A stretch of 64,000 nucleotides of DNA, taken from the NCBI GenBank assembly GCA_964016885.1, contig CAXHJY010000304.1:62001-126000 (forward strand). The letters are read 5' to 3'. Under the pieces are notes generated by a model, which ran no database searches, was not told the origin of the DNA, and worked only from the letters and a program-made list of their open reading frames with translations. Shown here in pieces: positions 17,632 through 64,000 of the stretch (within the stretch, counting starts at the first letter, position 1; each line of letters starts with the position of its first letter). Both the position numbers and the translations under genes were made by a program. Origin of the DNA: Eledone cirrhosa (Eukaryota).

Positions 17632-17761
17632 GTATGTGAGAGAAAATATAAAATATAAACACAATATTTCAAAGCTATTCACAAAAGATACTAAACTGTA
17701 CTAACTAATGTCTTATACATCCAATAATCTATTCATCAATCTGTTTTTCTATATATAATAT

Positions 17762-18273
17762 AACTGTATATACTGGAGTAATAGTCGGCCCCCTATTTTG
17801 GGCTAAAAAATCTGGTATTTTCCATAGACCTCGTATAAAAGTCGACCCTAGTATTTCACAGGTAACAGGTCAACATTTGTGGGTCAAGATATCATCCTGT
17901 AGGTAGAAATAACACTATTACAAAATCATCATGAATTTAAGGCAAATTTATATTATTGCAAATAAATGTCTGAAACTAAAAATTTACCCAAATTTTTGCC
18001 TACCTAACTGTAGCCCGCTCTATAGCTGGAATGTCTGGTGCTTATAGTGGAATGTTTGGTGCTTATAGCAAAGCACAGCAAAGCACTACACAGTTGTTGA
18101 TGTGTACTACCATTACTAAAATGTAAGCATAAGATGTGCTGCAATCTTGCAACCTTTATATTTTTGGATTCTAGCTTGAATTTCTAATCCCTCAAAACTA
18201 GTATCCATGTAATACACCCCCCCCCCCCCCACGAACTTTAACCTTAAAAAATTATCTATAAAATTCAACTTGA

Positions 18274-18278
<5 letters not shown>
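17762..18278. mobile_element. Degenerate Tc2/pogo-like MITE remnant
   Basis: Left end CTGTATATACTGGAGTAATAGTCG with a repeated TATAAAAGTCGACCC subterminal motif; decayed right end CTTGAGTATATA. Confidence 0.4.
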
Positions 18279-18332
<54 letters not shown>

Positions 18333-18350
18333 GTATAAAAATCAATATAA

Positions 18351-18426
18351 TTACCTCATTACCAGAGGTTTCCCGAATGAGGCGAATACGAAAGAAACGT
18401 CTTCATTCGTTCGTCAGACGAGGCAA
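18351..18426 (-). ncRNA. Type I hammerhead ribozyme motif (PLE-associated)
   Basis: UUGCCUCGU-CUGACGA-helix II (CGAAUGA/UCAUUCG)-GAAA-CC(UCU)GG-UA-AUGAGGUAA; helix I 9 bp with G-U pairs. Confidence 0.75.
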
Positions 18427-19130
18427 TATAAAACATGGGTAAATACTTGGAAAATCTCATCAAGAAAAGCAAAAAAAACAAAAAAACAAAAAGATATAGA
18501 CAAATGAATTAGAATATGAAATATATAATAATCTTTCAAGAAAAATAATTAGGTGTGTGTATATGTATGTATATACGCTCACAGATGTGCATATATGTGT
18601 ATGCACATATGTATACGTATAGTGATAAAGTGTGCGTAAATATATAATTTAGGGCAAATGTATCTGTATGTCTGTAATCTACAGACAGAATAGATACATC
18701 ATAAGAATATGAAGGCACGCGCATAAACACACCTACACACACGTACACATAGATGCGGAAGTAAAAGAGGTAAGGGAGTGTAATAATTAAAGGAAAGTAT
18801 CAATCTCGATATATTTATAAAAATGGAACAATAATTTAGAAAGAAAAAATTAAAGAAAAGAAGACAAAAAAGGTACATACATATACACACACGTATATCT
18901 CACATAAGAAACGCAAAAATATACATGCTTATATATACATGCACACTTACACATCCATACGTTCGATACGTACACACACACGCACACACACACATACTTA
19001 CACTCACGCATATTGACCTGTTTGCATGACACGCATAAAAATGAGTAAGTAAAAAAATGGGGGAAGAAAAAAGGAACAAAACATAAAACCTAGATGTAAA
19101 AACACGGATATAAAGACACATACACATACG

Positions 19131-19167
<37 letters not shown>

Positions 19168-19608
19168 GCACGCGCGCGCACATACATAGTCGCTCATGTA
19201 CATATATAGGTATACACACATTAAGGCGTTCAGCCACATTGATACAGGGTGTAAAAAACTTGTGGATAAGTAAGTACAAATATAAAATTATGAAATTGTA
19301 AGATTGGCTGCGCAAAAATAAAAAATAAAATATATCTGGGGTGGAAAACACAAATGACATGACAAGTGTAATCAGTTAGTGAAGGAAATAGGGAAGTAAA
19401 AAAATGGAAAGTGAAAATATTAGGTAAGTGAATCGGAGAATAAAGGGGGGGGGGGTTATTGGTGGATGTGAAGTAAAAAAAAAAAAATAATAATATATAA
19501 AAATAAAAATAAAAATAAAAATAAAAATAAAAATAAAAATAAAAATAAAAATAAAAATAAATGAAATTAATGATAAGGATAAAAATGAAAGTAAATCAGA
19601 AAAGGTAA

Positions 19609-21510
19609 TTATAAAGAGAATAATAAGGGTTTATGGAGGATAGTATCTGAAAGTGTGTTAAGCTTATATGAGTTGGAAAGCAGGTGTGATTTCATGTGTG
19701 GGCAACTGGTGAAAATTTCCGTCTTTGTGTTCAGGCAGGTCTTTGGTGATTTTAGATTTTGCAATATCCAATATTTTTCATTTATGTAGAGCGTGCATTT
19801 TCTTGTTCCTCAAGCATATTCTTTAGATTGGTTCAAAATTGACCAATCTAATTTATATTGGATGCCTTGGTCTTTCAAATCCCAAATTCTGCTAGCCAGA
19901 GCTGTTGTAAATCTTTTTTCTGGATGTCGAAAGGATGCGACATGTGAGTAATAACGCGTTTTGAATTTGTCTTGCGTCATACCCACATATCGTTCACTGG
20001 TGGCTGGATGGTTGTTGCTGATGGTTGTCACTTTAGCCGCATATACAATGGCTTTGGTGTTGCATTTACCTTGTAATGGGCATTCACTTTTGATTCTACA
20101 GGAGCAAGTTTGATTTTCTCTAGGTGATATTTTGTTGATGATATAGGACTTAATAGGGGGACCGCAGGAATAGCTAATTTTGACACAGTTTCTGTTAAAG
20201 ATCTTATAGTATCTATGAGTTCTAGGGAAATGTTTATCTAGGAGCTCTAGGAATTTTTTGCGTACATTAGTTTTAACTGCTAGAGAGTAGGGGGGTGTGA
20301 ACCAGATTATTTTTCTTTTCCTGTTTTTATGTTTAATAGAGTTAGTATAGTTGGGTATGTATTTAATCGGTTCGCTAAAACCGCTATTTTGGAGGGCTTT
20401 ATTATAGTAGGGGGATGCCTTATTAAAAATAGCTTCTGAGGAAGAGAGGGTGGAGATCCTACGGCTAATATTAGGGATAAGATTTTTAAAAACTATAGGT
20501 GGATGGCAAGAGCCTTTATTTATATATTTTAAGTTTTCATTAGGTTTATGGTATGGTTTATAAGAAGCAGTAGGCAAATCTAGGTTTATATCTAGGAAAT
20601 CTACATTGGAAAGGTTAGTGTCAATAGTAATTTTAAGATTAAAACTAGCGAAGGTTTTTATTAAGGCTTTCCTTAATCTATCTAAGTTATGTCCTATGGT
20701 GGTATGGGAAAGTATTAGACCATCGTCGCGATAAAGCCCAAAAATATGGTTAGGAAATTTTTCTTTAAGAGTATGTAGGAGGAATAGGCCGACCAGATCA
20801 CAAACATCAGCACTGTCATAAGAGCCCATTGAGACATCGAATGGGTTCTCTGGGTTAGATATTTTTACCCAAGTGTCATTATCATTAAAAAGTAGAGTGT
20901 TTCTAGCGTGCAAGATGACATTCTCTTCAATATCGGAGATATTAGTAAACCCTCTAGCGAAATTTAAAGCTTTCGCTAAAAGGGTCTGAGTGATAGATGG
21001 GTAGAAATCTACAATGTCAAATTGGCTGAATCTAGAACTATTTTTGTTTTTAATATTATTAAACCAATGTACTACGGAAGAGCTATTTATCCATTGGAGT
21101 AATTTAGACTTACTTCTAATGTGTGTATTTAATTTATTTAAAATTTTTTTGCTGGCAAGACCAATATCAGTCTTAGCAGAATTGATTAATCTACAACTAG
21201 GACGATTAATAAAGTCGGGTTTATGATCTTTAAGAGTGATGTACGCTGAACGTTTAGCAAGTTTTTCTGTCCTATTATCTATTTTTAAAGAAACAGCTAA
21301 TTCTTTAGCTTCCTTATTTATATTATGGTACGTATTTATATTAGCTATTTGGTATTTAGAGGTGATATTATCTATTAATAGTTGGTCGTGTAAATTATTA
21401 TTAACTTCATATAGGTTTTTAGTTTTATCGGAGAAGATGAACTTATTATTAGAAGATTTGAAAGTTGAAATATCATTAGATAGTTTTGATTGAAAAGGGT
21501 TAGAGTACTT
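19609..21510 (-). pseudogene. PLE RT + GIY-YIG ORF with one in-frame TGA at 19810-19812 and 66 more codons to TAA
   Basis: Read-through gives GTRKCTLYINEK...CLNTKTEIFTSCPH, matching the PLE endonuclease C-terminus. Confidence 0.8.
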
Positions 21511-26212: not shown

Positions 26213-26384
26213 ACCATCACCACCAGCTGGTGATGATGGTGATGATATGGGGATGTGGTTGTGATGATGGTGTTGTGGGTGTGATGATGATATGGTAGTG
26301 ATTGTGATCATTGTTGTGATGGTGTGGTGGTAGTTGTGATGCTGATGTGGGGATTGTGATGGTGTAATGGTTGTGATGATGTGG

Positions 26385-29027
26385 TGGTTGTGCCGTAGCA
26401 ATAGTGTGGTGGTGGTTGTGTGGTAGCAATAGTGTGGTGGTAGTTGTGTGGTAGCGATAGTATGGTGGTGGTTGTGTGGTAGCGATAGTTTGGTGGTGGT
26501 TGTGTGGTAGCAATAGTATGGTGGTGGTTGTGTGGTAGCGATAGTTTGGTGGTGGTTGTGTGGTAGCGATAGTATGGTGGTGGTTGTGTGGTAACAATAG
26601 TGTGGTGGTGGTTGTGTGGTTGTAATGGTTGTGATGATGTGGTGGTTGTGTGGTAGCGATAGTGTGGTGGTGGTTGTGTGGTAGCAATAGTGTGGTGGTG
26701 GTTGTGTGGTAGCGATAGTGTGGTGGTGGTTGTGTGGTAGCAATAGTGTGGTGGTGGTTGTGTGGTAGCAATAGTGTGGTGGTGGTTGTGTGGTAACAAT
26801 AGTGTGGTGGTGGTTGTGTGGTTGTAATGGTTGTGATGGTGGTTGTGTGGTAGCAATAGTGTGGTGGTGGTTGTGTGGTAGCAATAGTGTGATGGTGGTT
26901 GTGTGGTAGCAATAGTGTGGTGGTGGTTGTGTGGTAGCAATAGTGTGGTGGTGGTTGTGTGGTAACAATAGTGTGGTGGTGGTTGTGTGGTAGCAATAGT
27001 GTGGTGGTGGTTGTGTGGTAGCAATAGTGTGGTGGTGGTTGTGTGGTTGTAATGGTTGTGATGATGTGGTGGTTGTGTGGTAGCAATAGTGTGATGGTGG
27101 TTGTGTGGTAGCGATAGTGTGGTAGTGGTTGTGTGGTAGCAATAGTGTGGTGGTGGTTGTGTGGTAGCAATAGTGTGGTGGTGGTTGTGTGGTAACAATA
27201 GTGTGGTGGTGGTTGTGTGGTAACAATAGTGTGGTAGTGGTTGTGTGGTAGCAATAGTGTGGTGGTGGTTGTGTGGTAGCAATAGTGTGGTGGTGGTTGT
27301 GTGGTAACAATAGTGTGGTGGTGGTTGTGTGGTAGCAATAGTGTGGTGGTGGTTGTGTGGTAGCAATAGTGTGGTGGTGGTTGTGTGGTAGCAAGGGTGT
27401 GGTGGTGGTTGTGTGGTAACAAGAGTGTGGTGGTGGTTGTGTGGTAGCAATAGTGTGGTGGTGGTTGTGTGGTAACAATAGTGTGGTGGTGGTTGTGTGG
27501 TTGTAATGGTTGTGATGATGTGGTGGTTGTGTGGTAGCGATAGTGTGGTGGTGGTTGTGTGGTAGCAATAGTGTGGTGGTGGTTGTGTGGTTGTAATGGT
27601 TGTGATGATGTGGTGGTTGTGTGGTAGCAATAGTGTGGTAGCAATAGTGTGGTAGTGGTTGTGTGGTAGCAATAGTGTGGTGGTGGTTGTGTGGTAGCAA
27701 TAGTTTGGTAGTGGTTGTGTGGTAGCAATAGTGTGGTGGTGGTTGTGTGGTAGCAATAGTGTGGTGGTGGTTGTGTGGTAACAATAGTGTGGTGGTGGTT
27801 GTGTGGTTGTAATGGTTGTGATGATGTGGTGGTTGTGTGGTAGCAATAGTGTGGTGGTGGTTGTGTGGTAGCAATAGTGTGGTAGTGGTTGTGTGGTAGC
27901 AATAGTGTGGTGGTGGTTGTGTGGTAGCAATAGTGTGGTGGTGGTTGTGTGGTAACAATAGTGTGGTGGTGGTTGTGTGGTTGTAATGGTTGTGATGATG
28001 TGGTGGTTGTGTGGTAGCAATAGTGTGGTGGTGGTTGTGTGGTAGCAATAGTGTGGTGGTGGTTGTGTGGTAGCGATAGTGTGGTGGTGGTTGTGTGGTA
28101 GCAATAGTGTGGTGGTGGTTGTGTGGTAGCAATAGTGTGGTGGTGGTTGTGTGGTAACAATAGTGTGGTGGTGGTTGTGTGGTAGCAATAGTGTGGTGGT
28201 GGTTGTGTGGTAGCAATAGTGTGGTGGTGGTTGTGTGGTAACAATAGTGTGGTGGTGGTTGTGTGGTAGCAATAGTGTGGTGGTGGTTGTGTGGTAGCAA
28301 TAGTGTGGTGGTGGTTGTGTGGTAGCAATAGTGTGGTGGTGGTTGTGTGGTAGCGATAGTGTGGTGGTGGTTGTATGGTAGCAATAGTGTGGTGGTGGTT
28401 GTATGGTAGCAATAGTGTGGTGGTGGTTGTGTGGTAGCAATAGTGTGGTGGTGGTTGTGTGGTAGCAATAGTGTGGTGGTGGTTGTGTGGTAGCAATAGT
28501 GTGGTGGTGGTTGTGTGGTAACAATAGTGTGGTGGTGGTTGTGTGGTTGTAATGGTTGTGATGATGTGGTGGTTGTGTGGTAGCGATAGTGTGGTGGTGG
28601 TTGTGTGGTAGCGATAGTGTGGTGGTGGTTGTGTGGTAGCGATAGTGTGGTGGTGGTTGTGTGGTAGCAATAGTGTGGTGGTGGTTGTGTGGTAGCAATA
28701 GTGTGGTGGTGGTTGTGTGGTAGCAATAGTGTGGTGGTGGTTGTATGGTAGCAATAGTGTGGTGGTGGTTGTGTGGTAACAATAGTGTGGTGGTGGTTGT
28801 GTGGTTGTAATGGTTGTGATGATGTGGTGGTTGTGTGGTAGCGATAGTGTGGTGGTGGTTGTGTGGTAGCAATAGTGTGGTGGTGGTTGTGTGGTAACAA
28901 TAGTGTGGTGGTGATTGTGTGGTAGCAATAGTGTGGTGGTGGTTGTGTGGTAGCAATAGTGTGGTGGTGGTTGTGTGGTTGTAATGGTTGTGATGATGTG
29001 GTGGTTGTGTGGTAGCAATAGTGTGGT
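26385..29027. repeat. 28-bp GT-rich minisatellite (about 2.6 kb) with interspersed 34-bp variant units
   Basis: Unit GTGGTAGCAATAGTGTGGTGGTGGTTGT; variant GTGGTTGTAATGGTTGTGATGATGTGGTGGTTGT; 28-aa periodicity in all three minus-strand frames. Confidence 0.95.
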
Positions 29028-29540
29028 AGTGGTGATGAGGGTGGTTGTGATATGGTGATGGTAGTAATGATGATGTTGTGGTTGTGATGATGGTGTGGTG
29101 GTTGTGAAGATGGTGTGATGATTGTGATAGAGGAGTAGTTGTGATGGTATGATTGTAGTTATGGTGGTAGTGTGGTTGTGTTGGTGGTATGATAGTGGTG
29201 GTGGTGCTGGAGATGTCATCTGTTTCTTTTTGTTGGCTCCTTTGTGAAGTTCAACATCCTGGGATTTCCTTTCAGTAACATTTTTCTCAGTATATCTCTA
29301 CCATATCTTCCTTCCACTACAAACTCTTGGCACATTTTCTCCCCCCACAACTATTATCCATATACACTACAAGTCCATACCAGGCACAATTTTCTCTCCT
29401 GCTCACTATATTTGATTGCTCTTACACCTAGTTTTTCTCTCAAATCATCTGTTCTCCATCATTCATGCATAATAAAATTACAAATTCAGTGGAGTATGCT
29501 CACTTTATTTATTTCTAGCCTTCACATATCTTTCAAATAT

Positions 29541-29729: not shown

Positions 29730-31412
29730 CCTTCAAATATCTTTCAATGCCCATGTTTATATTGCACATTGCACAACATACACAAGATAATGCCCATGCA
29801 CTATATTGCACATTGCACAACATACACAAACATCATGCTAACTTCCCTTCACTAAGAGAGAAACTCTTTGTTGCCAGCAGACATATTAAATAGCCCTGTG
29901 AACATTTTGTACCTTGTTCTTACTCTGTCCACGATGCTTTTGGAGCACTCTCCTCTACTGCTAATTAGGTCACTTAGGTAAATGAAGCTGTCATTTATTT
30001 CTAGGGAACATGGGTGCCCTCATTGCTATTCCTATACACATGCTAAATTACGAAGTTATCTTGCCTGTAATTCCACAGTTTATATTGGTTACACCATATG
30101 AAATTCCTACCTTCTTTTTTTTTTACATAATTAGCATGGCAATTTCTCAGGTGAGAGTAGAGTCATGTCTTCTATCTGCCTAACTAAAACTTTTGTCTTC
30201 AGGCCTCACAATTTTAGGTTTAGGCCTCTATGTTTGGAATTTATTCTCTAACTCTTTGATAGACTCACCTATCAGAACTTGGTCATTAACTTACAAGAAT
30301 TCATTCTCTCGTGGTAACAATTATGACCACTACCAGAATATATGTGGTTGCCTGAGACCTACGAAATCTAGCAGCCAAATCTTGCTAAATTCTTTTGCTA
30401 CCATATTTCTAATTCAAAGGCACTGCCTAAGATTTTCAAATAATTTGGAAAATAATTAAGAATTCAGAAGGATTTAGTAATATAACCAACTTTATCATTA
30501 TTAAGCTCATGCTAGAAACATAGCTTGTAACTAATATGATTTTCAGTTAATTTCAATGATGACTAAAGTTTTTGGAAGGGTTTAGGGATATAAATGACTT
30601 TCTCCTAAGGTGGGGTTTGGAACATAACTTAACAAAGGTTTATCATCATCATTACCCTTTTTACATCTGCTTTTCTTGTTGCCATGAGTTGTCATGTTAA
30701 AGGTAGACCAATCAGATGACCACATCTTGCTCATGCATTCCATATTTGGCATGGTTTCTATAGCTGGATGCTCTACCTAATACCAAACACTTTACAGGGT
30801 GTACTGGGTGTGTTTTATCATAGCATCAGCACTAGAAAGGTTTTGAGATGATTATCCTCACAGAATTATGATAGAAAGTTTTTAGATAAATATACAATAC
30901 AACAGTTTTGTATGGTAAAACCCAGGACAGTTTCAGGCAGTCTATTATCAAACAGATTAATTTACATATATTGGATATATTAGATAAAGTTACCCTAAAT
31001 ATAAACTGCTTAAGAAAAGTATATGGTGGTCAAGGCTGTGAGGAAGACCTCTGTGTGCTAGAAATAACAGTCAAATCTCCCTAATATATTTACGAAAACA
31101 CACTCTGGATAGAAAAGTCTGTGATACACTATGTCTGAATTACAAAATGGAATGGGTTTGTTTACTCAGGGTTGACTTAGGGCTAAACAACAACAACAAC
31201 AACAACAACAACAGCAACAGCAGCAGCAGCAGCAATAACAACAGACATAAAGAAACAGAATGGACAGTGAGGAGTGTACAGCATGGCCTAAATGCAACAG
31301 TGTATCAGACACATTTAACTGAATGTTGAACGTTCATACTAGTTTTAAATGTTTTCATACTAAACTGCCTTAAATAACCTCTAGTTTTATGATACTAATC
31401 TGTTTATTCTAA

Positions 31413-31627
31413 CCCTTTAGCATTACACTATATTTACTATCGCATGTTAGTGGTAAAGGCTTTATCTCACATAATTACCTCATATAATATCGACTCTATG
31501 AGATTTTGTTAATATTCATTTTGAGAATAATACTTAAACATCAGTCTGAATGGCCAGTTACGGCCAGTTTGAACAGAAAGAGGTGAGAGAATTCTGGCCA
31601 GATACAGCCGGTTTAAATGCTAAAGGG
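31413..31627 (+). mobile_element. piggyBac-type TTAA MITE, copy 1
   Basis: TIR CCCTTTAGCATT...AATGCTAAAGGG, flanks CTAA / TTAA. Confidence 0.8.
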
Positions 31628-31910
31628 TTAAAGTGTTTATATATGTATCTGAAAGTGAATGCACATGATGAAGGTGTTCAGCTCATGACCATAATAGTCA
31701 TGAATTTGATGCCCAGTAGCACACTGTGTCTTTGAACAAGACAGTTTATTTCACAATTGCTCCAATCTATTCAGCTAGTACCAAGCCTATGCAACAAGTG
31801 TTTTAAGGCCATTTTCCCTGCTAAAGCAAGGGGCATGACAAGTAGTTACTTTAGTTGCCCCTTATGACACACATGGATACAGTGTAACCCCCCCCCCCCC
31901 CCCATTTTAA

Positions 31911-32131
31911 CCCTTTAGCATTTAAACTGGACATATCTGGCCAGAATTCTCTCACCTTTTTCTGGTCAAACTGGCTTTAACTGGTCGCTCATACTGATGT
32001 TAAAGTACTGTTCTCAAAATAAATAATATTAAAATCTTATAGATTCGATATTATGTGAGATAATTATGAAAGATAAAGCCTTTACCACTAAAATACAATA
32101 GTATATATAGAGTAATGTAAATGCTAAAGGG
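31911..32131 (-). mobile_element. piggyBac-type TTAA MITE, copy 2 (inverted relative to copy 1)
   Basis: TTAA-CCCTTTAGCATTT...AAATGCTAAAGGG-TTAA; internal sequence is a diverged reverse complement of copy 1. Confidence 0.82.
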
Positions 32132-32577
32132 TTAAACCAGATACACACTCAAGTTTGTAATATCTTTAATAACACAAATAGCAATTACCTTGAATTAATC
32201 ATTGATACATACACAACAGTACCTACCTATACATGGCCTTCACAAATACTTTCAGTGACATAGCAAAAAAAAAAGAAATGTTGCTTTGAACAGCTATAAA
32301 AGGTATTTAACAAAGGCAGACATTCATAAGGATAAACATCATACATTTTGTTATTGACTCTATTTTCGCTATTGTTGTTGCTGTGAATATCGTTGTTGCT
32401 GAGAATATTGTTGTTGTAGTTAATGCTGCTGCTGTTGCTCTAGACATTGTGGTTGTTGTTGTTGTTACTCTTATTGTTGTTGTTTCTGAGAATTAGTATG
32501 GTATTAGTATTAAATCATAAACGAACAACCAAACAAAATGATTCTGAGTATATTCTCTCCCCACTTCTCTCTCTCTT

Positions 32578-43645: not shown

Positions 43646-44219
43646 TAGTCAGTTCTTAGATATGCCAGCTCTGTGTTTTTGGTGTTGATGGTTTCAGAGC
43701 CTTGAGACATATGAGCTTGTTAGGGATAATTCAATGTAGTCAGCAGGAATAATCTTAATTCTCATTGGTCAGTTTTTAGATGCTAGTAGGGTTGGTATTT
43801 GACCTCAAAGAGGCAGGTGGTGTTGTAAAGTTCAGACAAGATGACAATAGTTCCATATGACTGATTTTCACAAAAAGCATTCCTGGTCAGATATATATTC
43901 AATTGAGGTTTATAGTATGAAATTCGATACTACAGGTCATTCTTAAATTGAGGAATTTATGTGGGGTGGTAATACTGAAAATTATGGTTAGAGTCAAATA
44001 CTTAGAAGTTTACAAATAAAAAGACTTATGTTGGTTGACTTGTACATACACTCACACCTACCCCCACAGACACACACATCTACACACACAAATCCATACA
44101 GGTGTGTATATATATGTATGTACGCACAAGTGCATATATATATACAACAGAGGCCCCCAAATCCAAGTATATGGCAGACAAAAAACGAGGTGGGTGTTAT
44201 TTTTAAAGGAAAGTAAAAT

Positions 44220-44312
44220 GTTTGACCCCGACGGCAGAGCTCAAGCCGTTTCGCCAGCTATTTCGGGAAAATAGCCGTCGAAACGGCTTGAGTTCTGTCG
44301 TCGGGGTCAAAC
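44220..44312. repeat. 93-bp near-perfect GC-rich palindrome
   Basis: GTTTGACCCCGACGGCAGAGCTCAAGCCGTTTCG ... CGAAACGGCTTGAGTTCTGTCGTCGGGGTCAAAC. Confidence 0.9.
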
Positions 44313-44399
44313 TTTTTCCTATTACCCACTCTACTACCCTAAGTATTGAGTACTCTAGTGCATTATGGTCCATCTGGTTCCTTACCAGACCTCCTTCGT

Positions 44400-46138: not shown

Positions 46139-47211
46139 TTACAGTGTACTGGGTGCATTATATTGTGGTACCAGCACTACCATTTTACAGAGTGAACTGG
46201 GTGCATTATATTGTGGTACCAGCACTACCATTTTACAGAGTGAACTGGGTGCATTATATTGTGGTTCCAGCACTACCATTTTACAGAGTGGGCTGGGTGC
46301 ATTATATTGTGATTCCAGCACTACCATTTTACAGAGTGGGCTGGGTGCATTATATTGTGGTACCAGCACTACCATTTTACAGAGTGGGCTGGGTGCATTA
46401 TATTGTGGTTCCAGCACTACCATTTTACAGAGTGGGCTGGGTGCATTATATTGTGGTACCAGCACTACCATTTTACAGAGTGGGCTGGGTGCATTATATT
46501 GTGGTACCAGCACTACCATTTTACAGAGTGGGCTGGGTGCATTATATTGTGGTACCAGCACTACCACTTTACAGAGTGGGCTGGGTGCATTATATTGTGG
46601 TTCCAGCACTACCACTTTACAGAGTGGGCTGGGTGCATTATATTGTGGTACCAGCACTACCATTTTACAGAGTGGGCTGGGTGCATTATATTGTGGTACC
46701 AGCACTACCATTTTACAGAGTGGGCTGGGTGTATTATATTGTGGTACCAGCACTACCATTTTACAGAGTGGGCTGGGTGCATTATATTGTGGTACCAGCA
46801 CTACCATTTTACAGAGTGGGCTGGGTGCATTATATTGTGGTACCAGCACTACCACTTTACAGAGTGGGCTGGGTGCATTATATTGTGGTACCAGCACTAC
46901 CATTTTACAGAGTGGGCTGGGTGCATTATATTGTGGTACCAGCACTACCATTTTACAGAGTGGGCTGGGTGCATTATATTGTGGTACCAGCACTACCATT
47001 TTACAGAGTGGGCTGGGTGCATTATATTGTGGTACCAGCACTACCATTTTACAGAGTGGGCTGGGTGCATTATATTGTGGTACCAGCACTACCACTTTAC
47101 AGAGTGGGCTGGGTGCATTATATTGTGGTACCAGCACTACCACTTTACAGAGTGGGCTGGGTGCATTATATTGTGGTACCAGCACTACCACTTTACAGAG
47201 TGGGCTGGGTG
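46139..47211. repeat. 48-bp minisatellite, about 22 copies
   Basis: Unit TTACAGAGTGGGCTGGGTGCATTATATTGTGGTACCAGCACTACCA(T/C)T; 16-aa periodic ORFs. Confidence 0.95.
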
Positions 47212-48328
47212 TGTATATATGTATATATATATATGTTGATTAAGTGTATGCGGTTAATAACAACTACCATTGGCACCACAACCATTACAACCATCACCAC
47301 CACTAGTAACACCATTAGAAGCATCACCACCACTACTACCAACATCAGAACCACCACAACCACCACTATTAAAACCACTACCACCATCACCACCACCACC
47401 ACCACCACCACCAACACCACCACCAACACCACAACAACAATAACAACAACAATAATAACAACAATAACAACAACTGCCCCAACACCACCATCACCACCAC
47501 AACAACCGCCACAATTACAATCATCAATACCAACACCATTCCAACCATCAACAGCACCAGCACTACCAACACCTCCACCACCACATGCCAGTATCACAGA
47601 CAAAGCCAGGTTTGTGGAACTATCAGTAGTGGGTTCAATTCTAACACTCTTTCCCCATTCTCTCCAAACAACAACAGCAAGAAAAACCATTCTATCAGAG
47701 TGTAACTATGGCAACAGAGAATCCTATTTTTAACTTTGTTAGTATAATGGTTTTATTGAGTGATTATATGCATGTATGTATATGTATGTACGTATATAGT
47801 AGTAATCAAAGCAGCAAAGTGGAGTATATATATAAAGGAAGACATGAGAATGTGTAAGCGTGGGTATGCATACAGTCAATAAAGCATATATATATATATA
47901 TATACTTAATTAAACATGCATGTATACACACATATATAGGAATTGATAAACTTACATACCCACATACATATTCCAATTTTATATATTTGTATAGATGCCT
48001 ATACTTACATTAATACACACTATCTTGAATTAACTAAGAGTACGCCTATACCCAGTTAAGTATAGTTCTCTGTCCGTTATTGTTGTTGTTGTTTAACCCC
48101 ATGTCAACCATGACTGACCAGAGCTCTGTTTTTGTCTGTTATTTTCCACTATAATTATGTTACAGATGTGTCAAATACATCATCATCATCATTATAACCA
48201 TTTTATATCCCTTTTCTTGATTATTTTCAAAGTAATGTACGGGTTAAAAGTATTATTTCAAAAATAGCGGGAAATTATTATATCAAATTTATTCCAAATG
48301 ATAAACATTCTTTTTATTGTTGTTTCAG

Positions 48329-49678
48329 ATTGTGCAGGCTGGTGAGCAACTGCTGTTATCTGGTGATGTAACAACTAGTTTCCCACCAAGGGCCAACAAA
48401 GTCAAACTACTACGGTGTATTGACAGTAAAGGGGAAAATGTCTACCTTCCATTTGAGGAAAGAGGAATGTTTTCATCAATATATTCAGGAGACATTTACA
48501 CAGGAGTACTTCAGATTCAAGACATCATCCAAAAATATCGTTTGCCATTAACTGTTAAACTAGTGCATGGCATTTGGCCTAAGGTTGAGAAAGAACGTTT
48601 CACTGGTTTAATCCGGCTAGATTGGGTTTATGTCGATGAGACAGCATTTGTGTGCCCTTTTGAAAAAGATACTATTCGTATGATTCCTGTCCCTATAGAT
48701 GCTCCACTACAAGTGGCCCCCTCAGCTAATTTCAAATCTTTAACCGAGAAAGAATTGTATGAAAAAATTCATTCGAAATGTTCCCGAATGGTGTCTAACT
48801 ACAACAGCACAATACATCTCATAGTGAATGTACCAAATGCTGTTGCAAGGTGTTTCAGCAACAAACTGTCACGGAATGCATTCTCTCAGGCAATTAATCA
48901 GGAGTCCAAGACAAAGCTGATCTCCAAGAAAAAAGAAGATAGGCTGATGGATGAAATCGATGATATATACCATTATGTCCGTGATGGTGGTGTAGCACCC
49001 AAGTCAAAGTTTACTTATGATTCTGATGAAGAAAGCTATTGGGAAGAACCAGCCTATGAACCTATTGACAACTTCCAGCAACGCCTTAAAGCTATTCAAT
49101 CAGGAGAGCAAGTTCAACACCATGAGAAATACCAGCCTACTGATACAGCCAAACTTGGCTTCAGAGCAACTCAAAAAAGCACTAATGAAAATACCACAAA
49201 TAATTTCCATAACTCTCAGAGATCAAAGGTTAGTTCCAAGGATAGCAGTTCCAAGGAATGGCAAACCCAGACAAACGAACAACTTAACTTGTCCCAAATT
49301 AAACCTCAAATAGAGAGAATCACAGATAACCAAAAGTTATCAATGAGTATCACTAATATCACTCCTGATTTATCATTGGGTATTGGCGGCAACAGAGACT
49401 CTACTAAAACAGCTCGTAGTGATGACCCACCCCCTATACCACCACGCCACTACAGAAGGTCTGGATCTTTTCCTTTGTTGGATACCTCACCGATTCTAAA
49501 AATGGTACAATCTACAAGTGATTGGCACCTGGCACAATCTTCAAAGTCAAATTACAAGGATTCAAATACAACTAACAGCCTGAAGAGCTCGAAAACTTCC
49601 TCCCATAACAAGGCTTTGGGAAAATCAGCATATTTTGTCAAACACTTGAACAAAAAACAACAGACAATGTTTTTATAA
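48329..49678 (+). CDS. Coding exon 2 (449 aa plus stop) of the same CABIT-domain gene
   Basis: Acceptor TTTTTATTGTTGTTTCAG|ATT, phase 0; GEQLLL...LLRC...VYLPFEERGMFS...LPLTVKLVHG continue CABIT; Tyr motifs DDIYHYV and SYWEEPAYEPI; PPPIPPR; AATAAA at 49740 and 49889. Confidence 0.8.
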   Translation: MVQAGEQLLLSGDVTTSFPPRANKVKLLRCIDSKGENVYLPFEERGMFSSIYSGDIYTGVLQIQDIIQKYRLPLTVKLVHGIWPKVEKERFTGLIRLDWVYVDETAFVCPFEKDTIRMIPVPIDAPLQVAPSANFKSLTEKELYEKIHSKCSRMVSNYNSTIHLIVNVPNAVARCFSNKLSRNAFSQAINQESKTKLISKKKEDRLMDEIDDIYHYVRDGGVAPKSKFTYDSDEESYWEEPAYEPIDNFQQRLKAIQSGEQVQHHEKYQPTDTAKLGFRATQKSTNENTTNNFHNSQRSKVSSKDSSSKEWQTQTNEQLNLSQIKPQIERITDNQKLSMSITNITPDLSLGIGGNRDSTKTARSDDPPPIPPRHYRRSGSFPLLDTSPILKMVQSTSDWHLAQSSKSNYKDSNTTNSLKSSKTSSHNKALGKSAYFVKHLNKKQQTMFL

Positions 49679-56601: not shown

Positions 56602-56625
56602 TTATATATATATATATTATATATA

Positions 56626-57543
56626 TAATAAAATGAGTCCCTCATCAGTGATTTGCCGACGATCATAGATATTTCATTGCATTAAAAATCATATACCTCA
56701 CGTCGGTGCAATAATAACCAAAATAAGTTATTAGGACAATTGAAACGCGTAAAGCGAGTGAGACAGGAGAACAACAAAGAGTATAGCTAACCATAGGGGA
56801 AAGAAACAAGCTTCAAAATTATTCTGTTTAGCATAAGCTAGGTGAATATATGAGCGCTTTTAGAAAAAAGACCTGACACGAACGATGGCCATGTGAGAAG
56901 AGAGAAAAATATAGCCTTCGTCGTGTACAGGATGAAGCGAAGAGAAGAGAAACAGTGAGTGAGTGAAAGTGTGAGGAAGAGCTAACTGACATGACAGAGG
57001 GGGCGAAAGAAAGTAGGAGAAACAGAGAGAATGGGGAGGAACAGTAAGAGAGAGAGAGAAAAAACACAGAATCGCAGTTTGGGTAAATATATGTAATAAA
57101 TATAGAGAAAAATACTGCAGGCCCCTCTGTCATGTCAGTTAGCTCTTCCTCACACTTTCACTCACTCACTGTTTCTCTTCTCTTTCGCTTCATCCTGTAC
57201 ACGACGAAGGCTATATTTTTCTCTCTTCTCACATGGCCATCGTTCGTGTCAGGTCTTTTTTCTAAAAGCGCTCATATATTCACCTAGCTTATGCTAAACA
57301 GAATCATTTTGAAGCTTGTTTCTTTCCCCTATGGTTAGCTATACTCTTTGTTGTTCTCCTGTCTCACTCGCTTTACGCGTTTCAATTGTCCTAATAACTT
57401 ATTTTGGTTATTATTGCACCGACGTGAGGTATATGATTTTTAATGCAATGAAATATCTATGATCGTCGGCAAATCACTGATGAGGGACTCATTTTATTAC
57501 ATGTTATCCATGTGCTACCTGCAGTATTTTTCTCTATATTTAT

Positions 57544-57550
<7 letters not shown>
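56626..57550. repeat. Long inverted repeat (arms of about 377 bp, 56626-57002 / 57122-57499) with nested tandem continuation
   Basis: Arms near-identical; 57518-57550 is the reverse complement of the spacer end 57089-57121. Confidence 0.9.
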
Positions 57551-57579
<29 letters not shown>

Positions 57580-58198
57580 AGTGGAAGCTTAGTAAAATCG
57601 AAGCTTTGGCTGTGGGCAAGCAAAGTCGACCTACAATATGAATGAGTTAGCAAAGCACTCAATAAAGGTAGGTCCTTAGAGTAATAACATACGTTTAAAT
57701 AGCTTGACAAATTGAACATTGTCGTAGGCAAAACCCAACACACAATACCAAAGTAACGAAAGAACTAACAGGTTAAAAATGTATATATATATATCACACA
57801 CATTCATCACCACTCTCTTCAGGACAAAACTTGTTTTGTCAGTTTTGTCAGACCATCAGACCATCAGTTTCTTTACCTATCTCTCTCTATCTCTCTATCT
57901 CTCTATCTCTCCCTCTCTATTTCTCCCTCTCTATCTGTCTGTCCATCTATCTATCTATTTGCCTGTCTAACAATCTGTCTGTTCATCTCCCATATATTTA
58001 CCTATCTATCTATCCACCTACCTACCCACCTACCCCTGTCTATCTGTCTGTCTGACTGTCTATCTATAGCTAAATATTTATATATATATTTACCAATGTA
58101 TTTGTCATCAGACAAGAACAAAAGAAGGATCTATCTCTCAATATGTCTGTCTATTCTTCTATCTGCCTATCTCTCTACCTATATATATTTCAGTCAAT

Positions 58199-58271
<73 letters not shown>

Positions 58272-58368
58272 TCTCTCACACTCTCTCTCTGATGATGATG
58301 ATGATTTATATATATATATATATATATATATATCATCATCATCACATATATATATATATGGCTGTGTG

Positions 58369-58411
<43 letters not shown>

Positions 58412-58443
58412 TCATCACATATATATATATATGGTTGTGTGTA

Positions 58444-59696
58444 TCATCATCATCATCATCATCATCAACGTTTAACGTCCGTGTTCCACGCTTGCATGGG
58501 TTTGGACGGGGGTAGTCCCACTTGAGGCAAGAGTGATTGTCTTGCTCGCATAGGACTGTCTGGCAGGTTTTCTACAGTTGGATGCCCTTCCTAACACCAA
58601 CCACATTTACAGTGTGGGTCTGGGAAGTTTTTACCGTGTTGCCTACACAACCACATTACAGCGTGGACTGTGTGTTTTTTTGTCGTGACACCTACACGAT
58701 CTCATTTGTTTCGACCTGGATGGCGCGGCACCAACATAACTTTACATAGAACGGGGTGGTGTGGATGGGGTGGGGGTGGTGGTGGTGGGACGGGGTGTAT
58801 TTTGTTAGAGATGCCTACTGGCTGGAGTAGGTTTTACTATATATTTAGGTAAGGCGGGTCGTCTCTGTTACTGAGTACCGCCAAAGGTCTCGGTCCAGTG
58901 ACATTGTCTTGGAGAGGTGTAAGTGTGTGATGTCGGAGTTTATCAGCTCGTCCCAGGTTTTTCTAGGTCTGCCTATTCCGTGACTACTGTCTATCTTTAT
59001 TGCCCTGCACTTTGTTATACAGCTATCGGCTTTCATGCGCATCACGTGTCCATACCAACGTAGCCTTCTCTCGAGTAAACAACATCTGATCCCTCTTATC
59101 TCTAATTTTTTCCTTAGTTCGTTTATGCTTTGCCGTTCACGTATATTACTGTTACACATCCAGCGGAGCATGCAAGCTTCGTTCCTCTCCAGTCTGCGTA
59201 TATCCTCTGCACACAATGCCCAGGTCTCACTGCCATGCAACATTGCTGTTCGTATGCAGGCATCGTACAACCTGCCTTTCATTTTTAGGGAGAACCCTTT
59301 AGCAGCTAATAGTGGTATAAGCTCTCTGAACTTTTTCCAACCAGTTCTGACTCTAGCTACAGTACTTTCAGAGCACCCTCCCCCACTGCTGATTTTATCG
59401 CCCAGGTAATGGAAGCTGTCCACTATTTCTATAGAACCCTCTGCGCAATTGAAAGAGCTAGTATTTTGTGGGCCCTTGCTGCTACTTATTGCACCAGAAC
59501 ACCGGCCACATGTAAAATCTATGTTCTTAGTTAGCTTACCTGTGATCCCACTACATCTTTTATGCACCCATACTTTGCATTTAGGACATAAAATGGAGTT
59601 TCTACCTACGCCTTTCCTACACACCGAGCACGACCATTTCCCAGAAGGGACCGCCGCCTTGTTTTCTTTCCTACAAACTAGAACTTTGGTCTTAGC

Positions 59697-59697
<1 letters not shown>
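58444..59697 (-). mobile_element. 5'-truncated RTE subfamily C copy
   Basis: ORF 58845-59624 with intact PHD and RLRWYGHV; 3' UTR and (CAT)n. Confidence 0.9.
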
Positions 59698-59731
<34 letters not shown>

Positions 59732-59866
59732 AAAAAAAAAGAAAAGAATGACTTCACTTGTAGTGTTAAAAAATTTATGATTTAATGTTATAATATAATT
59801 GTTTCTATTTTTGGCACAAGGACAGCAATTACCCAGTGCATTACTCATTACTGGTACTTTATTTTA

Positions 59867-60388
59867 TTTAGACTAAAGAAATTTCTAGCCTGATAGTGGA
59901 GTTTATAACCCTCGGAGAAATGGAAAAAGATGAGTGTTGCCGTACATGGGAGTCGATCCGAGGGTTATAAACCCCACTATCAGGCTAGAAATTTCTTTAG
60001 TCTAAAATATGGTGAAAGCTTATAATTTTTAATTTCTAATTTCAAACTCGCGCACCGTTTCAAAAACATACTTACATGTTTACGTTTATAATTTGCTTGT
60101 TTATCATTCACTTGCTAAGTTCATAGCTTCTAATTCGAATGGAAGGAGACGGGATGTGTATTGGTGTAATGGTAACACAGTGGTCTGGATAACCAAAGAT
60201 GTGGGTTCGACTCCCATGTACGGCAACACTCATCTTTTTCCATTTCTCCGAGGGTTATAAACCCCACTATCAGGCTAGAAATTTCTTTAGTCTAAAATAC
60301 GGTGAAAGCTTATAATTTCTAATTTCTAATTTCAAACTCGCGCACCGTTTCAAAAACATACTTACATGTTTACGTTTATAATTTGCTT
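59867..60388. repeat. 290-bp tandem unit (1.5 copies) with an inverted segment, containing a tRNA-like sequence
   Basis: 59957-60098 repeats at 60247-60388; 59867-59956 is the reverse complement of about 60207-60296. Confidence 0.85.
60155..60225 (+). pseudogene. tRNA-like cloverleaf (anticodon loop CUGGAUA) with Pol III boxes and a T5 terminator; not a bona fide tRNA gene
   Basis: A box TGGTGTAATGG, D stem GTGT/ACAC, anticodon stem TGGT/ACCA, T arm GTGGG-TTCGACT-CCCAT, partly mismatched acceptor stem, TTTTT at 60235-60239. Confidence 0.6.
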
Positions 60389-60440
60389 ATATATATATAT
60401 ATATATTTGTGTATAGTGGTAGCTATGGTGCTTCCGTAGG

Positions 60441-60474
<34 letters not shown>

Positions 60475-60660
60475 GTGTATAGTGGTAGCTATGGTGCTTC
60501 GGTAGGCGATATATATATATATATATATATGCAAAGTTTTATTTAAATTGTTGGGTTAACAACGAGTAAATATTTATAACTGATATAAAAGCACTCAACA
60601 AGTATTTGGAGTATATTTACGATATTAAATAAATGGAAACTATATTTATAAAACCATATT

Positions 60661-60726
60661 TATTTCATTATATATATTTCAGGGATATCATATTAAAAAT
60701 ATGTTATGCCTTCTTCAGACAAAATA
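60661..60726 (-). ncRNA. Minimal type I hammerhead ribozyme motif downstream of the PLE ORF at 62295-63216
   Basis: UAUUUUGU-CUGAAGA-AGGCAUAACAUA...UAUGAUAUCCCU-GAAA-UAUAUA-UA-AUGAAAUA. Confidence 0.75.
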
Positions 60727-61323
60727 CAATATAAACAGTCTTATAAATAGATAGATTCGACATACCTTTCAACTTCGACTTCTATTTGAAAAGTTGATTT
60801 GGTAGTGAAAAAATATTAGGGACAGTTATAAAAAGAAAGAAAGAAAAACGAAGAAAAAGAAGAAATGCATGCAACTAAATAGAGAGAGATATAGAGAGAT
60901 AGATAGAGAGAAGAAATTCATGTAAAGAAACAGAGAGAGATATATAGAGAGAGGAAAAAAACACAGAGGGAGATAGATAGAGAGAGATAGAGAGAAGAGA
61001 TGAGAGAGAGAGAGAGAGAAAATATAGAGAGATAGATATAGATAGAGATAGAGAGAAAGAAAATAGGTAGTTGGGCACCAGTTGAATGACGTATCAATGA
61101 TATATTTATTTATTTATTTATTTATTTATTTAGCTCTAGTATTAATGTAGAGAGAGATATATGTGGTTAAGAGAGAAAACAGCCGTTACATAGAGAGAAA
61201 AGAAAAATATCCAGACATAACCGAGGCAGAATTAAAACACTATGTTTCATCAATGTAAAAAATATCAATTCGTATAAAACAGGCATTATATCAGTATTCA
61301 TGAATGAGACACGTATCAATAAT

Positions 61324-61510
61324 TGTTTCTACTTTTGGCACACGGCCAGCAATTATCCCAGTGCATTACTGGTACTTTATTTTATCGACCCCGGAAGGAT
61401 GAAAGGCAAAGTTAACCTCGGCGGGATTTGAACTCAGACCATAAAGGGGCGTAACTCTTTGCTGCAAAGCATGCCGTGCGACCCTCTACCGATACTGCCA
61501 ATCCACCGCC
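61324..61510 (-). mobile_element. Young family-1 SINE with an 18-bp TSD, inserted in the PLE 3' region
   Basis: GAGACACGTATCAATAAT at 61306-61323 and 61511-61528. Confidence 0.9.
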
Positions 61511-63216
61511 GAGACACGTATCAATAATGTGTGAAAAATAATGATCATATGTCTAGTTTAAAATTCCTAGGTTTATATTAGAGTTGAGATAAAATAGAAG
61601 GTTATCCCAGATTTTATACTATATACATCCATGTGAATTTACGTGATCAGCTCTGCAAATTCCTGTTTCACACGAAAACATTCTCGTTGTGCTATAAAAA
61701 TTCTAGTATAGATATATGTGTACATACACACAAATATATATAGAGTCTACATTAATTTTAACAATACTATTCATGTCTTTACTCTACATGATTATCGTTC
61801 AAGCATAAATAGAGAACAGATATCAATATATCAATAAAAATAAAAATAAAAATATCAGAAACAAAAAATAAATAAAAAACAAAAAAAAAATCAAAAAATA
61901 TTAAAAATAAAAATATTAAAAATATTAAAAATATTAAAATAAAAATAAAACATAGTATGCCACGCAAATCAACCACAGAGATCAACCCTTCAAAGTTAAT
62001 TGACAATATATTGCCAAGTTCGTTATAAGCATCAGAATCAAAAGCAAACAAAACCAAAAATTATTTACCAAATCCTGTCTAGCAGAAAACATTCCAAAAG
62101 TTTAGGATACCCATTTGATCTACAGATGGTCTTATATTTAATATAGAAGTTTATCTAGTGTAAAATTTATTCGATATATTTGGAGCATCAGCTTTTAGGG
62201 TAGTTTAATTATTCATGAAGAATGTTTAAAATAAAAAGGAATCGAAAGATTTATCGGCGAGTTCCATAAATAATTATAAATCAAATTAAATATACTACAT
62301 TTTAAATTTATATTTATATTTAAAAGTTGAGTTCAATCTATGTCTGCAGCAACTGAATAAATTTGTCCGTAAATTAAGGGAATTTTTAGATTTTAGTATA
62401 AAGAATATCTCCTCCGCGCAGAGGTCACATGTCTCAGAGGATGAATTAAAAGGAATCCCTCTTGAGACTATATTCCAAGCCGTTGAATATCCAACGTTAT
62501 CATACCTAAGCCTGATAGTGATGTTGAGGATTTTTTGCTTGGATCTGTGAAAGAATTCTTGTGGTTATTATAGCGAAGTTTAAATTCTGTCGAGGTGGAA
62601 CCAACATAGTTAAAAGAATTTAAGTCCGTTTTAACATTACAGTTGTATATTATATTTTTAACTAAGCAATTGTTATTTAACGGACATTTAGATCTATCTC
62701 TACAGTTACATTTGTTAACTTGGATATTATTTATGCTATTATCGGTATTTTGGCTAGGTTTTAAATTCCTATTATTTATTCTATTAATATTTTGTGCTAA
62801 ATTTTTGGTGGATGAGTAGGTTAATTTTATAGTATGTCTATTGAAAATTGAGTGATACCTATGTGTTCTAGGGAAGCGATTATCAAGAGCATTAAAAAAT
62901 AGTTTAGCGATGTGGGTTTTAATGTTTAGTGAGAAAGGGGGGGCAAACCATATTATATTCCTAGTTCTATTTCTTTTTTGGCTTTTGGAATTATTGTAAT
63001 GCTTTCTATTATAGTTGTTAAAGTTGTTGCCGTAATTAAAATTGTTGTTATTTTGGTTAGTTTGTCTATTATTATCTATGTACATAATTGTATCACTATA
63101 TCCTGCTCTAGCTAACGCTTCATTGTAATACTGGGCTTTTTCGTCGAAAATCTTTTTATTAGATGAGATTCTAGAGATACGATTTTGAACAGAGTTTACT
63201 ATAGTATTTTTAACAG

Positions 63217-64000
63217 ATCTAATAAAAAGATTTTCGACGAAAAGGCCCAGTATTACAATGAAGCGTTAGCTAGAGCAGGATATAGTGATACAATTATGTA
63301 CATAGATAATAATAGACAAACTAACCAAAATAACAACAATTTTAATTACGGCAACAACTTTAACAACTATAATAGAAAGCATTACAATAATTCCAAAAGC
63401 CAAAAAAGAAATAGAACTAGGAATATAATATGGTTTGCCCCCCCTTTCTCACTAAACATTAAAACCCACATCGCTAAACTATTTTTTAATGCTCTTGATA
63501 ATCGCTTCCCTAGAACACATAGGTATCACTCAATTTTCAATAGACATACTATAAAATTAACCTACTCATCCACCAAAAATTTAGCACAAAATATTAATAG
63601 AATAAATAATAGGAATTTAAAACCTAGCCAAAATACCGATAATAGCATAAATAATATCCAAGTTAACAAATGTAACTGTAGAGATAGATCTAAATGTCCG
63701 TTAAATAACAATTGCTTAGTTAAAAATATAATATACAACTGTAATGTTAAAACGGACTTAAATTCTTTTAACTATGTTGGTTCCACCTCGACAGAATTTA
63801 AACTTCGCTATAATAACCACAAGAATTCTTTCACAGATCCAAGCAAAAAATCCTCAACATCACTATCAGGCTTAGGCATGATAACGTTGGATATTCAACG
63901 GCTTGGAATATAGTCTCAAGAGGGATTCCTTTTAATTCATCCTCTGAGACATGTGACCTCTGCGCGGAGGAGATATTCTTTATACTAAAATCTAAAAATT
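63217..64000 (+). mobile_element. Inverted near-identical copy of the same PLE segment (continues past the window)
   Basis: Reverse complement of 62381-63164; same protein sequence and same frameshift. Confidence 0.9.

What the first reader, a model, noticed from the sequence alone, without database searches (positions are those of the whole stretch)
56626..64000. Three unrelated sequences within 7.5 kb share one offset-inversion geometry
Seen: at 57121, 59956 and 63216 a minus-strand copy joins directly to a plus-strand copy that starts 119, 40 and 52 nt further 3'. The arms are near-identical, and the two small units end at or near (TA)n runs. One is a coding PLE and two are non-coding. Inference: a common snap-back priming mechanism, implying that Naiad-type PLE proteins mobilise diverse small passenger RNAs, either hammerhead-bearing or tRNA-bearing. 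This is my best candidate for an undescribed system here.
Basis: inference. Interest (0 to 1): 0.72.

Follow-up and report, generated by a model that had tools for sequence, protein, structure and literature searches.

The report
Penelope-type mirror insertions, one carrying tRNA
The three back-to-back duplications are real copies of three abundant jumping-gene families laid out in the mirror pattern already known for Penelope-like elements; the less ordinary part is a non-coding family with a tRNA look-alike, likely copied by a borrowed Penelope enzyme that seems to stall at that tRNA shape, where a sister family has close to a thousand mirror junctions.

Summary
All three junctions exist (spacers 119, 40, 52 nt). 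Each belongs to a large young family: E1 (about 515-nt non-coding unit), E2 (290-nt unit with a tRNA look-alike), and E3 (a Penelope-like element, PLE). The layout is the published PLE footprint: partial tandems, an inverted 5' copy and a one-sided tail. Of 56 junctions, 46 pair one short-end arm with one long-end arm; none pairs like with like. Offsets are not generally small (E3 median 1.8 kb), and the untailed arm is the longer one in 13 of 46, which argues against snap-back and for priming at both cut strands. E3 has RT before the endonuclease and a hammerhead, so it is not a Naiad. E1 has no hammerhead, but a covarying 3' structure. No autonomous partner of E1 or E2 was found. Not found in print: a tRNA-bearing PLE passenger, and 969 inversion junctions of an E2 sister family at the 3' edge of the tRNA look-alike, also seen in raw reads. 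This scan noted tRNA-bearing PLE passengers earlier in other genomes, and two-site priming earlier in this one.

The parts
56623..57121 (-). E1 left arm, 499 nt, ends at the family's short 3' end in (TA)n; 57003-57121 is the 119-nt spacer
57122..57555 (+). E1 right arm, 434 nt, ends at the long 3' end (tail about 57503-57555) in (TA)n
57387..57483 (+). E1 structured 3' module (four helices, covarying in 10 relatives) followed by a lone CTGATGA; not a hammerhead
59793..59867 (.). SINE fragment against which the E2 left arm ends short of the family's short end
59867..59956 (-). E2 left arm, starts in the T-loop of the tRNA look-alike; 59917-59956 is the 40-nt spacer
59957..60388 (+). E2 right arm, 1.5 units of 290 nt (partial tandem), long 3' end followed by (TA)n
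60153..60225 (+). tRNA look-alike inside the E2 unit (ARAGORN Ser-GGA call; Rfam tRNA 39.3 bits), followed 8 nt later by a run of five T
60215..60218 (+). CATG at the T-stem/acceptor boundary: inversion hot spot of the sister family, also seen as an opposite-strand joint in raw reads
60531..60611 (-). 81-nt tail of the E3 left arm (absent from the right arm), next to (TA)n at 60510-60530
60612..63216 (-). E3 left arm: 3' part of a PLE ORF (thumb, Cys linker, GIY-YIG-like domain, frameshifted) plus about 1.5 kb of 3' non-coding region; 63165-63216 is the 52-nt spacer
60661..60726 (-). Type I hammerhead-like motif of E3 (exact core, stem I 8 bp, stem II, short stem III), 100 nt before the short end
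61324..61511 (-). SINE with an 18-nt target duplication, present in both E3 arms; its exact junction is found nowhere else in the assembly
63217..64000 (+). E3 right arm; continues to window-equivalent 65803 (G000:C331:127803), ends at the short end in (TA)n

Best explanation
The three mirror junctions are separate insertions of three repeat families, likely made by Penelope-type reverse transcriptase/endonuclease proteins that prime DNA synthesis from both cut strands of a (TA)n target on the same RNA. Shown: each family has two fixed 3' ends (53, about 60 and 81 nt apart), random 5' ends and partial tandems; inverted copies pair one short end with one long end; and the two arms come from one source. 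Inferred: one cut strand starts at the short site and the other at the long site; each cDNA stops at its own point; and the two cDNA ends are joined head to head, often through 1-4 nt of homology. The offset is then just the difference in cDNA length. E3 is a defective copy of an active canonical PLE. E1 and E2 are inferred non-autonomous passengers whose partner enzyme was not identified. In the E2 group the cDNAs likely stall at the folded T-arm of the tRNA look-alike, so two cDNAs ending in register pair at a self-complementary tetramer and give perfect palindromes (about 0.55 for this last step).
For: Ends: 46 of 56 junctions are short+long, 0 are long+long or short+short, and 10 have one unclassifiable end. 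In 21 E1 loci picked by the short end, 16 have an inverted arm: 12 end at the long end, 3 at a third end in (AG)n, 1 is cut by the locus edge, and none ends at the short end. The untailed arm reaches further 5' in 13 of 46, including window E1; a copy of the first cDNA could not add a tail that the first lacks. E3 offsets: median 1796 nt, 3 of 26 within 160 nt against 2.6 expected, P=0.51. One source: arms differ by 0.8% against 1.4% between loci, and 6 of 7 long pairs are closer to each other than to any other locus; the window's E3 arms share a private SINE and deletion. Microhomology averages 1.4 nt in 19 direct joins against 0.6-0.8 by chance. Sister family: 969 junction sites within 15 nt against 1176 exact read-through copies; 42 of the first 50 listed are palindromes without a loop; the main joint is in three raw-read runs. 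In vitro, a PLE protein extends both strands and starts at two internal sites that bound the tail (PMC11167929).
Against: No sequence link between E1 or E2 and any coding PLE was found; only three active families and chance fragments were sampled, and two 3' regions were not covered to their ends. (TA)n flanks do not discriminate, since the RTE control also sits in TA. In the first E1 sample only 3 of 28 loci were inverted, no more than RTE copies with some adjacent inverted piece (3 of 24). Only 26 of 56 junctions could be resolved to the base, and 7 of those have extra bases. Loci are top-scoring hits, biased toward long tailed arms. In vitro, start-site use did not differ between strands, so the strict short+long pairing is unexplained. 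Gene conversion could also make arms alike. The window's own E2 left arm reads through position 58 of the tRNA look-alike, and 1176 copies pass the hot spot, so any stall is leaky.
Confidence: 0.8

Rival explanations
1. Snap-back self-priming: one cDNA (or an antisense template) folds back and copies itself, leaving a short loop.
For: Arms share private variants; modest microhomology; the window's three offsets are short; the tailed arm is the longer one in 33 of 46.
Against: The shorter arm carries the tail in 13 of 46. Spacers reach 2-4.8 kb with no excess of short ones. 42 of 50 listed sister-family junctions have no loop at all.
Confidence: 0.1
2. Assembly or long-read fold-back artefacts, or generic repair palindromes.
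For: Near-identical arms; the window lies on a 204-kb contig rather than a chromosome-sized one; its own junctions were not seen in reads.
Against: Outer ends fall on family-specific fixed sites with a one-sided tail. Arms differ by substitutions and microsatellite length. Opposite-strand joints and head-to-tail joints occur in raw Illumina reads of 2-3 runs and in contigs. RTE control: 0 of 24 direct duplicated joins.
Confidence: 0.03
3. E1 and E2 are moved by something other than a PLE: a TA-targeting LINE such as the local RTE, or, for the palindromic sister-family copies, a DNA transposase treating them as MITEs.
For: No PLE partner found. RTE also targets TA. Many sister-family copies share one junction. 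A tRNA look-alike is typical of SINEs.
Against: RTE copies lack the two fixed ends and partial tandems. Palindromic copies are asymmetric, vary at the long end (unit 266-270), have at least three different centres, and sit beside simple copies truncated at the same place. The tRNA is internal and followed by a T run. Shared arm-specific variants, which a MITE master would give, were not tested.
Confidence: 0.07

Closest known systems
Endonuclease-bearing PLE insertions (Penelope/Poseidon, Neptune, Nematis, Naiad; PMC8557442 passages, PMC3846280 passages and Discussion)
   Same: 5' truncation, partial tandems, inverted 5'-truncated copy joined head to head, one-sided tail, microsatellite targets.
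   Different: Tails here are 53-81 nt (about 37 in the E2 sister family) against 30-40 reported. The strict short+long pairing is counted here and was not stated in the passages read. E1 and E2 have no ORF.
Anole PLE PAc in vitro (PMC11167929, passages and second half of main text)
   Same: Both strands cut and extended; two internal RT start sites bounding the tail; AT-rich target.
   Different: No strand preference of start site in vitro; inverted insertions and passengers were not examined in the text read.
Animal non-LTR retrozymes (PMC7229834 passages; bioRxiv 10.64898/2026.07.22.740005 abstract to discussion)
   Same: Small non-coding tandem units proposed to be moved by PLEs.
   Different: Retrozymes are defined by a type I hammerhead; E1 and E2 have none, and E2 carries a tRNA look-alike.
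Non-autonomous Chlamys elements such as MRC1 (PMC8557442 passage)
   Same: Non-coding, pLTR-forming, head-to-tail PLE passengers in a group mostly without hammerheads.
   Different: Those generally share 3' sequence with an autonomous family; none was found here. No tRNA domain was mentioned in the passages read.
L1 twin priming and tRNA-derived SINEs (recalled, no call)
   Same: Two primings on one RNA joined by microhomology; a tRNA-like domain.
   Different: Twin priming inverts a non-overlapping piece (seen once in the RTE control, L126), whereas here the same region is copied twice. SINEs start with the tRNA and have target duplications.

Membership tests
Naiad PLE (for E3) | GIY-YIG endonuclease N-terminal to RT | tested here: not met
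   The 742-aa family ORF has the YRDD RT motif mid-protein and the Cys linker and GIY-YIG-like motif at the C-terminus (motifs read by eye). Pfam gave no hit on P0001 and a weak C-terminal GIY-YIG hit on homologue P0062.
Naiad PLE (for E3) | No canonical hammerhead | tested here: not met
   Type I hammerhead-like motif in the 3' region.
Canonical C-terminal EN+ PLE (for E3) | Single ORF with RT then GIY-YIG, tandem pLTR, tail, inverted copies, hammerhead | tested here: met
Neptune or Nematis clade (for E3) | RT phylogeny with named references; Cys-rich linker before the endonuclease | tested here: inconclusive
   A Cys linker is present; the homologues carry no clade names; no tree was built.
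Non-autonomous PLE (E1, E2) | PLE insertion footprint: two fixed 3' ends, partial tandem, inverted 5' copy, no ORF | tested here: met
   Longest arm over one unit in 22 of 28 E1 loci and 28 of 28 E2 loci, the latter forced by the query.
Non-autonomous PLE (E1, E2) | 3' sequence shared with an autonomous PLE | tested here: inconclusive
   No match in three active families and incidental fragments; most PLE families of the genome were not sampled.
Non-LTR retrozyme (E1, E2) | Type I hammerhead in each unit | tested here: not met
   No Rfam hammerhead at E<=1. Descriptor scan: E1 half core only; E2 no exact core, only a weak one-mismatch type II candidate on the minus strand.
Non-LTR retrozyme (E1, E2) | Expressed linear and circular monomer RNA | not testable with these tools
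   No RNA run was offered.
tRNA-derived SINE (E2) | tRNA head at the 5' end of the copied RNA, LINE-type 3' tail, target duplication | tested here: not met
   The tRNA is internal to a permuted tandem unit; copies include upstream sequence and end in (TA)n at two fixed sites.
Functional tRNA gene (E2 cassette) | Cloverleaf with A/B boxes and an identity consistent with the anticodon | tested here: inconclusive
   Passes Rfam gathering (39.3 bits) and ARAGORN. It is called Ser-GGA but lacks a long variable arm (expectation recalled). Charging cannot be tested.

The most novel reading that the evidence does not exclude
A ribozyme-free class of PLE passenger RNAs carries a tRNA mimic that folds, and may be methylated by host enzymes at position 58, inside the template. 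It acts as a roadblock for the Penelope reverse transcriptase, so cDNAs primed from both target ends stop in register and pair with each other. That would write about a thousand perfect palindromes into this genome and leave a DNA record of an RNA structure or modification.
Probability: 0.35. Interest if true: 0.75.

Novelty: new variant of a known kind. Interest (0 to 1): 0.5.

Why it matters
The geometry itself is known, but how PLE tandem and inverted insertions form is called unresolved in PMC8557442. The counts here (short+long pairing, independent arm lengths, loop-free palindromes) separate two-strand priming from self-priming. They give short non-coding substrates and intact candidate enzymes for a direct test. 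A tRNA-bearing, ribozyme-free passenger would widen the known PLE cargo beyond retrozymes and MRC1-like elements. Such units may be filed as SINEs or tRNA genes in cephalopod annotations (inference). A stall at the tRNA mimic would tie insertion shape to RNA fold or modification.

Tried and rejected
Partner search: E1, E2 and the sister unit against 1.08 Mb of fetched loci and 30 loci of two further active PLE families gave only low-complexity matches. An E1-like module next to a PLE fragment (L188/L234) proved to be a separate insertion. Hammerhead in E1 or E2: rejected. Naiad for E3: rejected. Host-DNA transduction as the source of E3's 1.5-kb 3' part: rejected, as it is the family's own 3' region. 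A second SINE-bearing E3 source copy: no exact junction match in the assembly. (TA)n flanks as a PLE-specific mark: rejected, since RTE copies share them (judged by eye). A generic self-inverted-repeat count did not separate the first E1 sample from controls (E1 2 of 30, E2 14 of 30, RTE 1 of 30, SINE 4 of 28). RNase Z cutting as the cause of the hot spot: disfavoured, because junctions include tRNA positions 63-73 that such a cut would remove (inference). Expression: no RNA holder listed. Pfam found nothing on the E3 ORF. Literature searches for a tRNA-bearing PLE passenger listed none; only listings were seen for most hits. Repbase, Dfam and subscription papers are not covered, and supplements (for example file S1 of PMC8557442, which lists Naiad families including Octopus ones) were not read and may bear on novelty and on the partner.
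Full report
Observation. The three head-to-head junctions are at the stated places, with spacers of 119, 40 and 52 nt. The window is G000:C331:62001-126000 of a 3.0-Gb animal assembly, probably an octopod (the only species-named homologues are octopods). The left arm has 81 extra nt, and both outer ends lie in (TA)n.

Three families. E1 is a non-coding unit of about 511-515 nt (1968 candidates, 40 scored). E2 is a 290-nt unit (1862 candidates) with a tRNA look-alike at 60153-60225. E3 is a 3.9-kb PLE (3802 candidates) whose intact copies encode about 740 aa, with RT in the middle and a Cys linker and GIY-YIG-like domain at the end. It has a type I hammerhead-like motif 100 nt before its short end. 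By the definitions in PMC8557442 (passages) it is not a Naiad; its clade was not fixed. The window copy is 5'-truncated. Both arms share an 11-nt frameshifting deletion and a SINE whose exact junction occurs nowhere else in the assembly. E1 has a lone CTGATGA and no hammerhead. Ten E1 relatives share a four-helix 3' structure, with 12 of 26 pairs changed on both sides and 0 of 500 shuffles as high. The structure was derived from the same alignment and the sequences are related, so this is support, not a probability.

Shared footprint. After dropping four duplicate loci (L018, L019, L053, L061), 28 E1, 28 E2 and 53 E3 loci were mapped. Each family has two fixed 3' ends, 53, about 60 and 81 nt apart, and 146 of 153 such ends are followed by a TA run. 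Inversions were seen in 3, 18 and 34 loci. Of 56 junctions, 46 join a short-end arm to a long-end arm, none joins like with like, and 10 have one end cut or rearranged. L086 and L206 share a junction and may be one insertion; one L200 row has a 44-nt gap. Picking E1 by its short end gave 23 exact sites. Of 21 analysed, 16 are inverted and 12 of those end at the long end; one of them, L224, is the same insertion as L020. This layout, including the one-sided tail, is the published PLE hallmark (PMC8557442; PMC3846280).

Controls. Among 30 RTE loci, 24 show their 5' end. One has a non-overlapping twin-priming inversion, two have an inverted 3' piece separated by a TA-rich gap, and none has a direct duplicated join. 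RTE copies also sit in TA, so the flank is not diagnostic. SINE loci show target duplications by eye. A generic inverted-repeat count gave E1 2 of 30, E2 14 of 30, RTE 1 of 30 and SINE 4 of 28. Raw Illumina reads from runs X15-X17 and contigs of X1 hold opposite-strand and head-to-tail joints of the E2 group, so the geometry is not an assembly product at family level.

Mechanism. Snap-back predicts short loops, and a second arm that cannot exceed the first at its 3' end. In E3 the median offset is 1796 nt, and 3 of 26 lie within 160 nt against 2.6 by permutation. The untailed arm is the longer one in 13 of 46, although sampling favours the reverse. Arms are closer to each other than to other loci (0.8% against 1.4%; 6 of 7 long pairs closest). 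Microhomology is modest: 1.4 nt in 19 direct joins against 0.6-0.8 by chance, with 26 of 56 junctions resolved and 7 of those having extra bases. An anole PLE protein extends both strands and starts at two internal sites that bound the tail (PMC11167929). I therefore infer priming at both cut ends, one at each site, on one RNA or on RNAs of one source, with the cDNA ends joined head to head. Why the two sites are always mixed is unexplained.

The tRNA look-alike. It is internal and followed by five T, so a normal Pol III transcript would end before the start sites (inference); E2 is not a SINE. A sister family of about 270 nt has the same cassette and the same two-end footprint. In 28 distinct loci, 11 are palindromes centred on CATG at tRNA positions 63-66, and 5 more arms begin there directly after non-element sequence; ranking may favour two-arm loci. 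Genome-wide, 969 sites have an inversion junction within 15 nt of this place, against 1176 exact read-through copies. Of the first 50 listed, 34 are CATG-centred (22 exact), 8 are centred on two neighbouring tetramers, and 8 are other. The CATG joint is in all three raw runs (18, 15 and 11 reads from 5, 8 and 7 start places), and 7 of the 9 opposite-strand joints listed have an end within 6 nt of it (read depth is also high there, and one joint row was not shown). Loop-free palindromes fit two cDNAs pairing better than one folding back. A stall at the T-arm, possibly at methylated A58 (that m1A blocks RT is recalled; abstract openings only), would explain why both end there. A cluster of three self-complementary tetramers could contribute by itself, other tetramers were not counted, and the stop is leaky.

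Partner. No match was found between E1 or E2 and coding PLEs in 1.08 Mb of loci or in two further active families. The assignment to PLE machinery rests on the footprint.

Known and new. The geometry and hammerhead-bearing PLE passengers are in print: retrozymes (PMC7229834 passages; bioRxiv 10.64898/2026.07.22.740005, parts 1-3 of 5) and MRC1. The O. vulgaris annotation (PMC13282606, first third and passages) does not describe such elements in what I read. Seven searches listed no tRNA-bearing PLE passenger; Repbase, Dfam and supplements were not seen. Earlier notes of this scan report tRNA-bearing PLE passengers in other genomes and two-site, two-end priming in this one. My reading was stated before I saw them, and they are not independent proof. 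Verdict: new variant of a known kind, interest 0.5.

Noticed in passing
L167:1485-1794: The tRNA look-alike, ending at its T run, is fused 5' to the common SINE inside one 16-nt target duplication; a single hint that the cassette exists as a short Pol III RNA.
   Followed up: no
window 18200-21501 (-): A second, 5'-truncated PLE family copy (about 47% identical to homologue P0004) with a long 3' region ending in a hammerhead-like core and (TA)n.
   Followed up: partly
L220, L221, L228, L003, L026: E1 has a third fixed 3' end (unit 495); in L220, L221 and L228 it lies in (AG)n rather than (TA)n.
   Followed up: no
window 60388-60519: Two 66-nt direct copies (97%) between E2 and E3, each bounded by (TA)n.
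   Followed up: no
L267-L296: Two more PLE families with many open ORFs of about 714 and 758 aa, tandem and inverted; 71,456 first-look candidates for a PLE protein in the genome.
   Followed up: partly
L117, L130: RTE copies with an inverted copy of their own 3' end upstream, separated by a TA-rich gap.
   Followed up: no
window 16897-17655 and 48305-49675: Two reading frames with CABIT domain hits (E 1.8e-11 and 1.6e-13), likely host gene exons.
   Followed up: no
window 26381-29033 and 46149-47211: Tandem arrays with 28-nt (93 copies) and 48-nt (22 copies) units that give long open frames.
   Followed up: no
window 31410-32134 and 44212-44320: An older element with 232-nt terminal inverted repeats (84%), and a 109-nt hairpin; both look unrelated to the PLE layout.
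   Followed up: partly
reads laid on window 60168-60277: Most reads match only the tRNA 3' half plus about 55 nt and then run on in other sequence, so further sister families share this core.
   Followed up: partly
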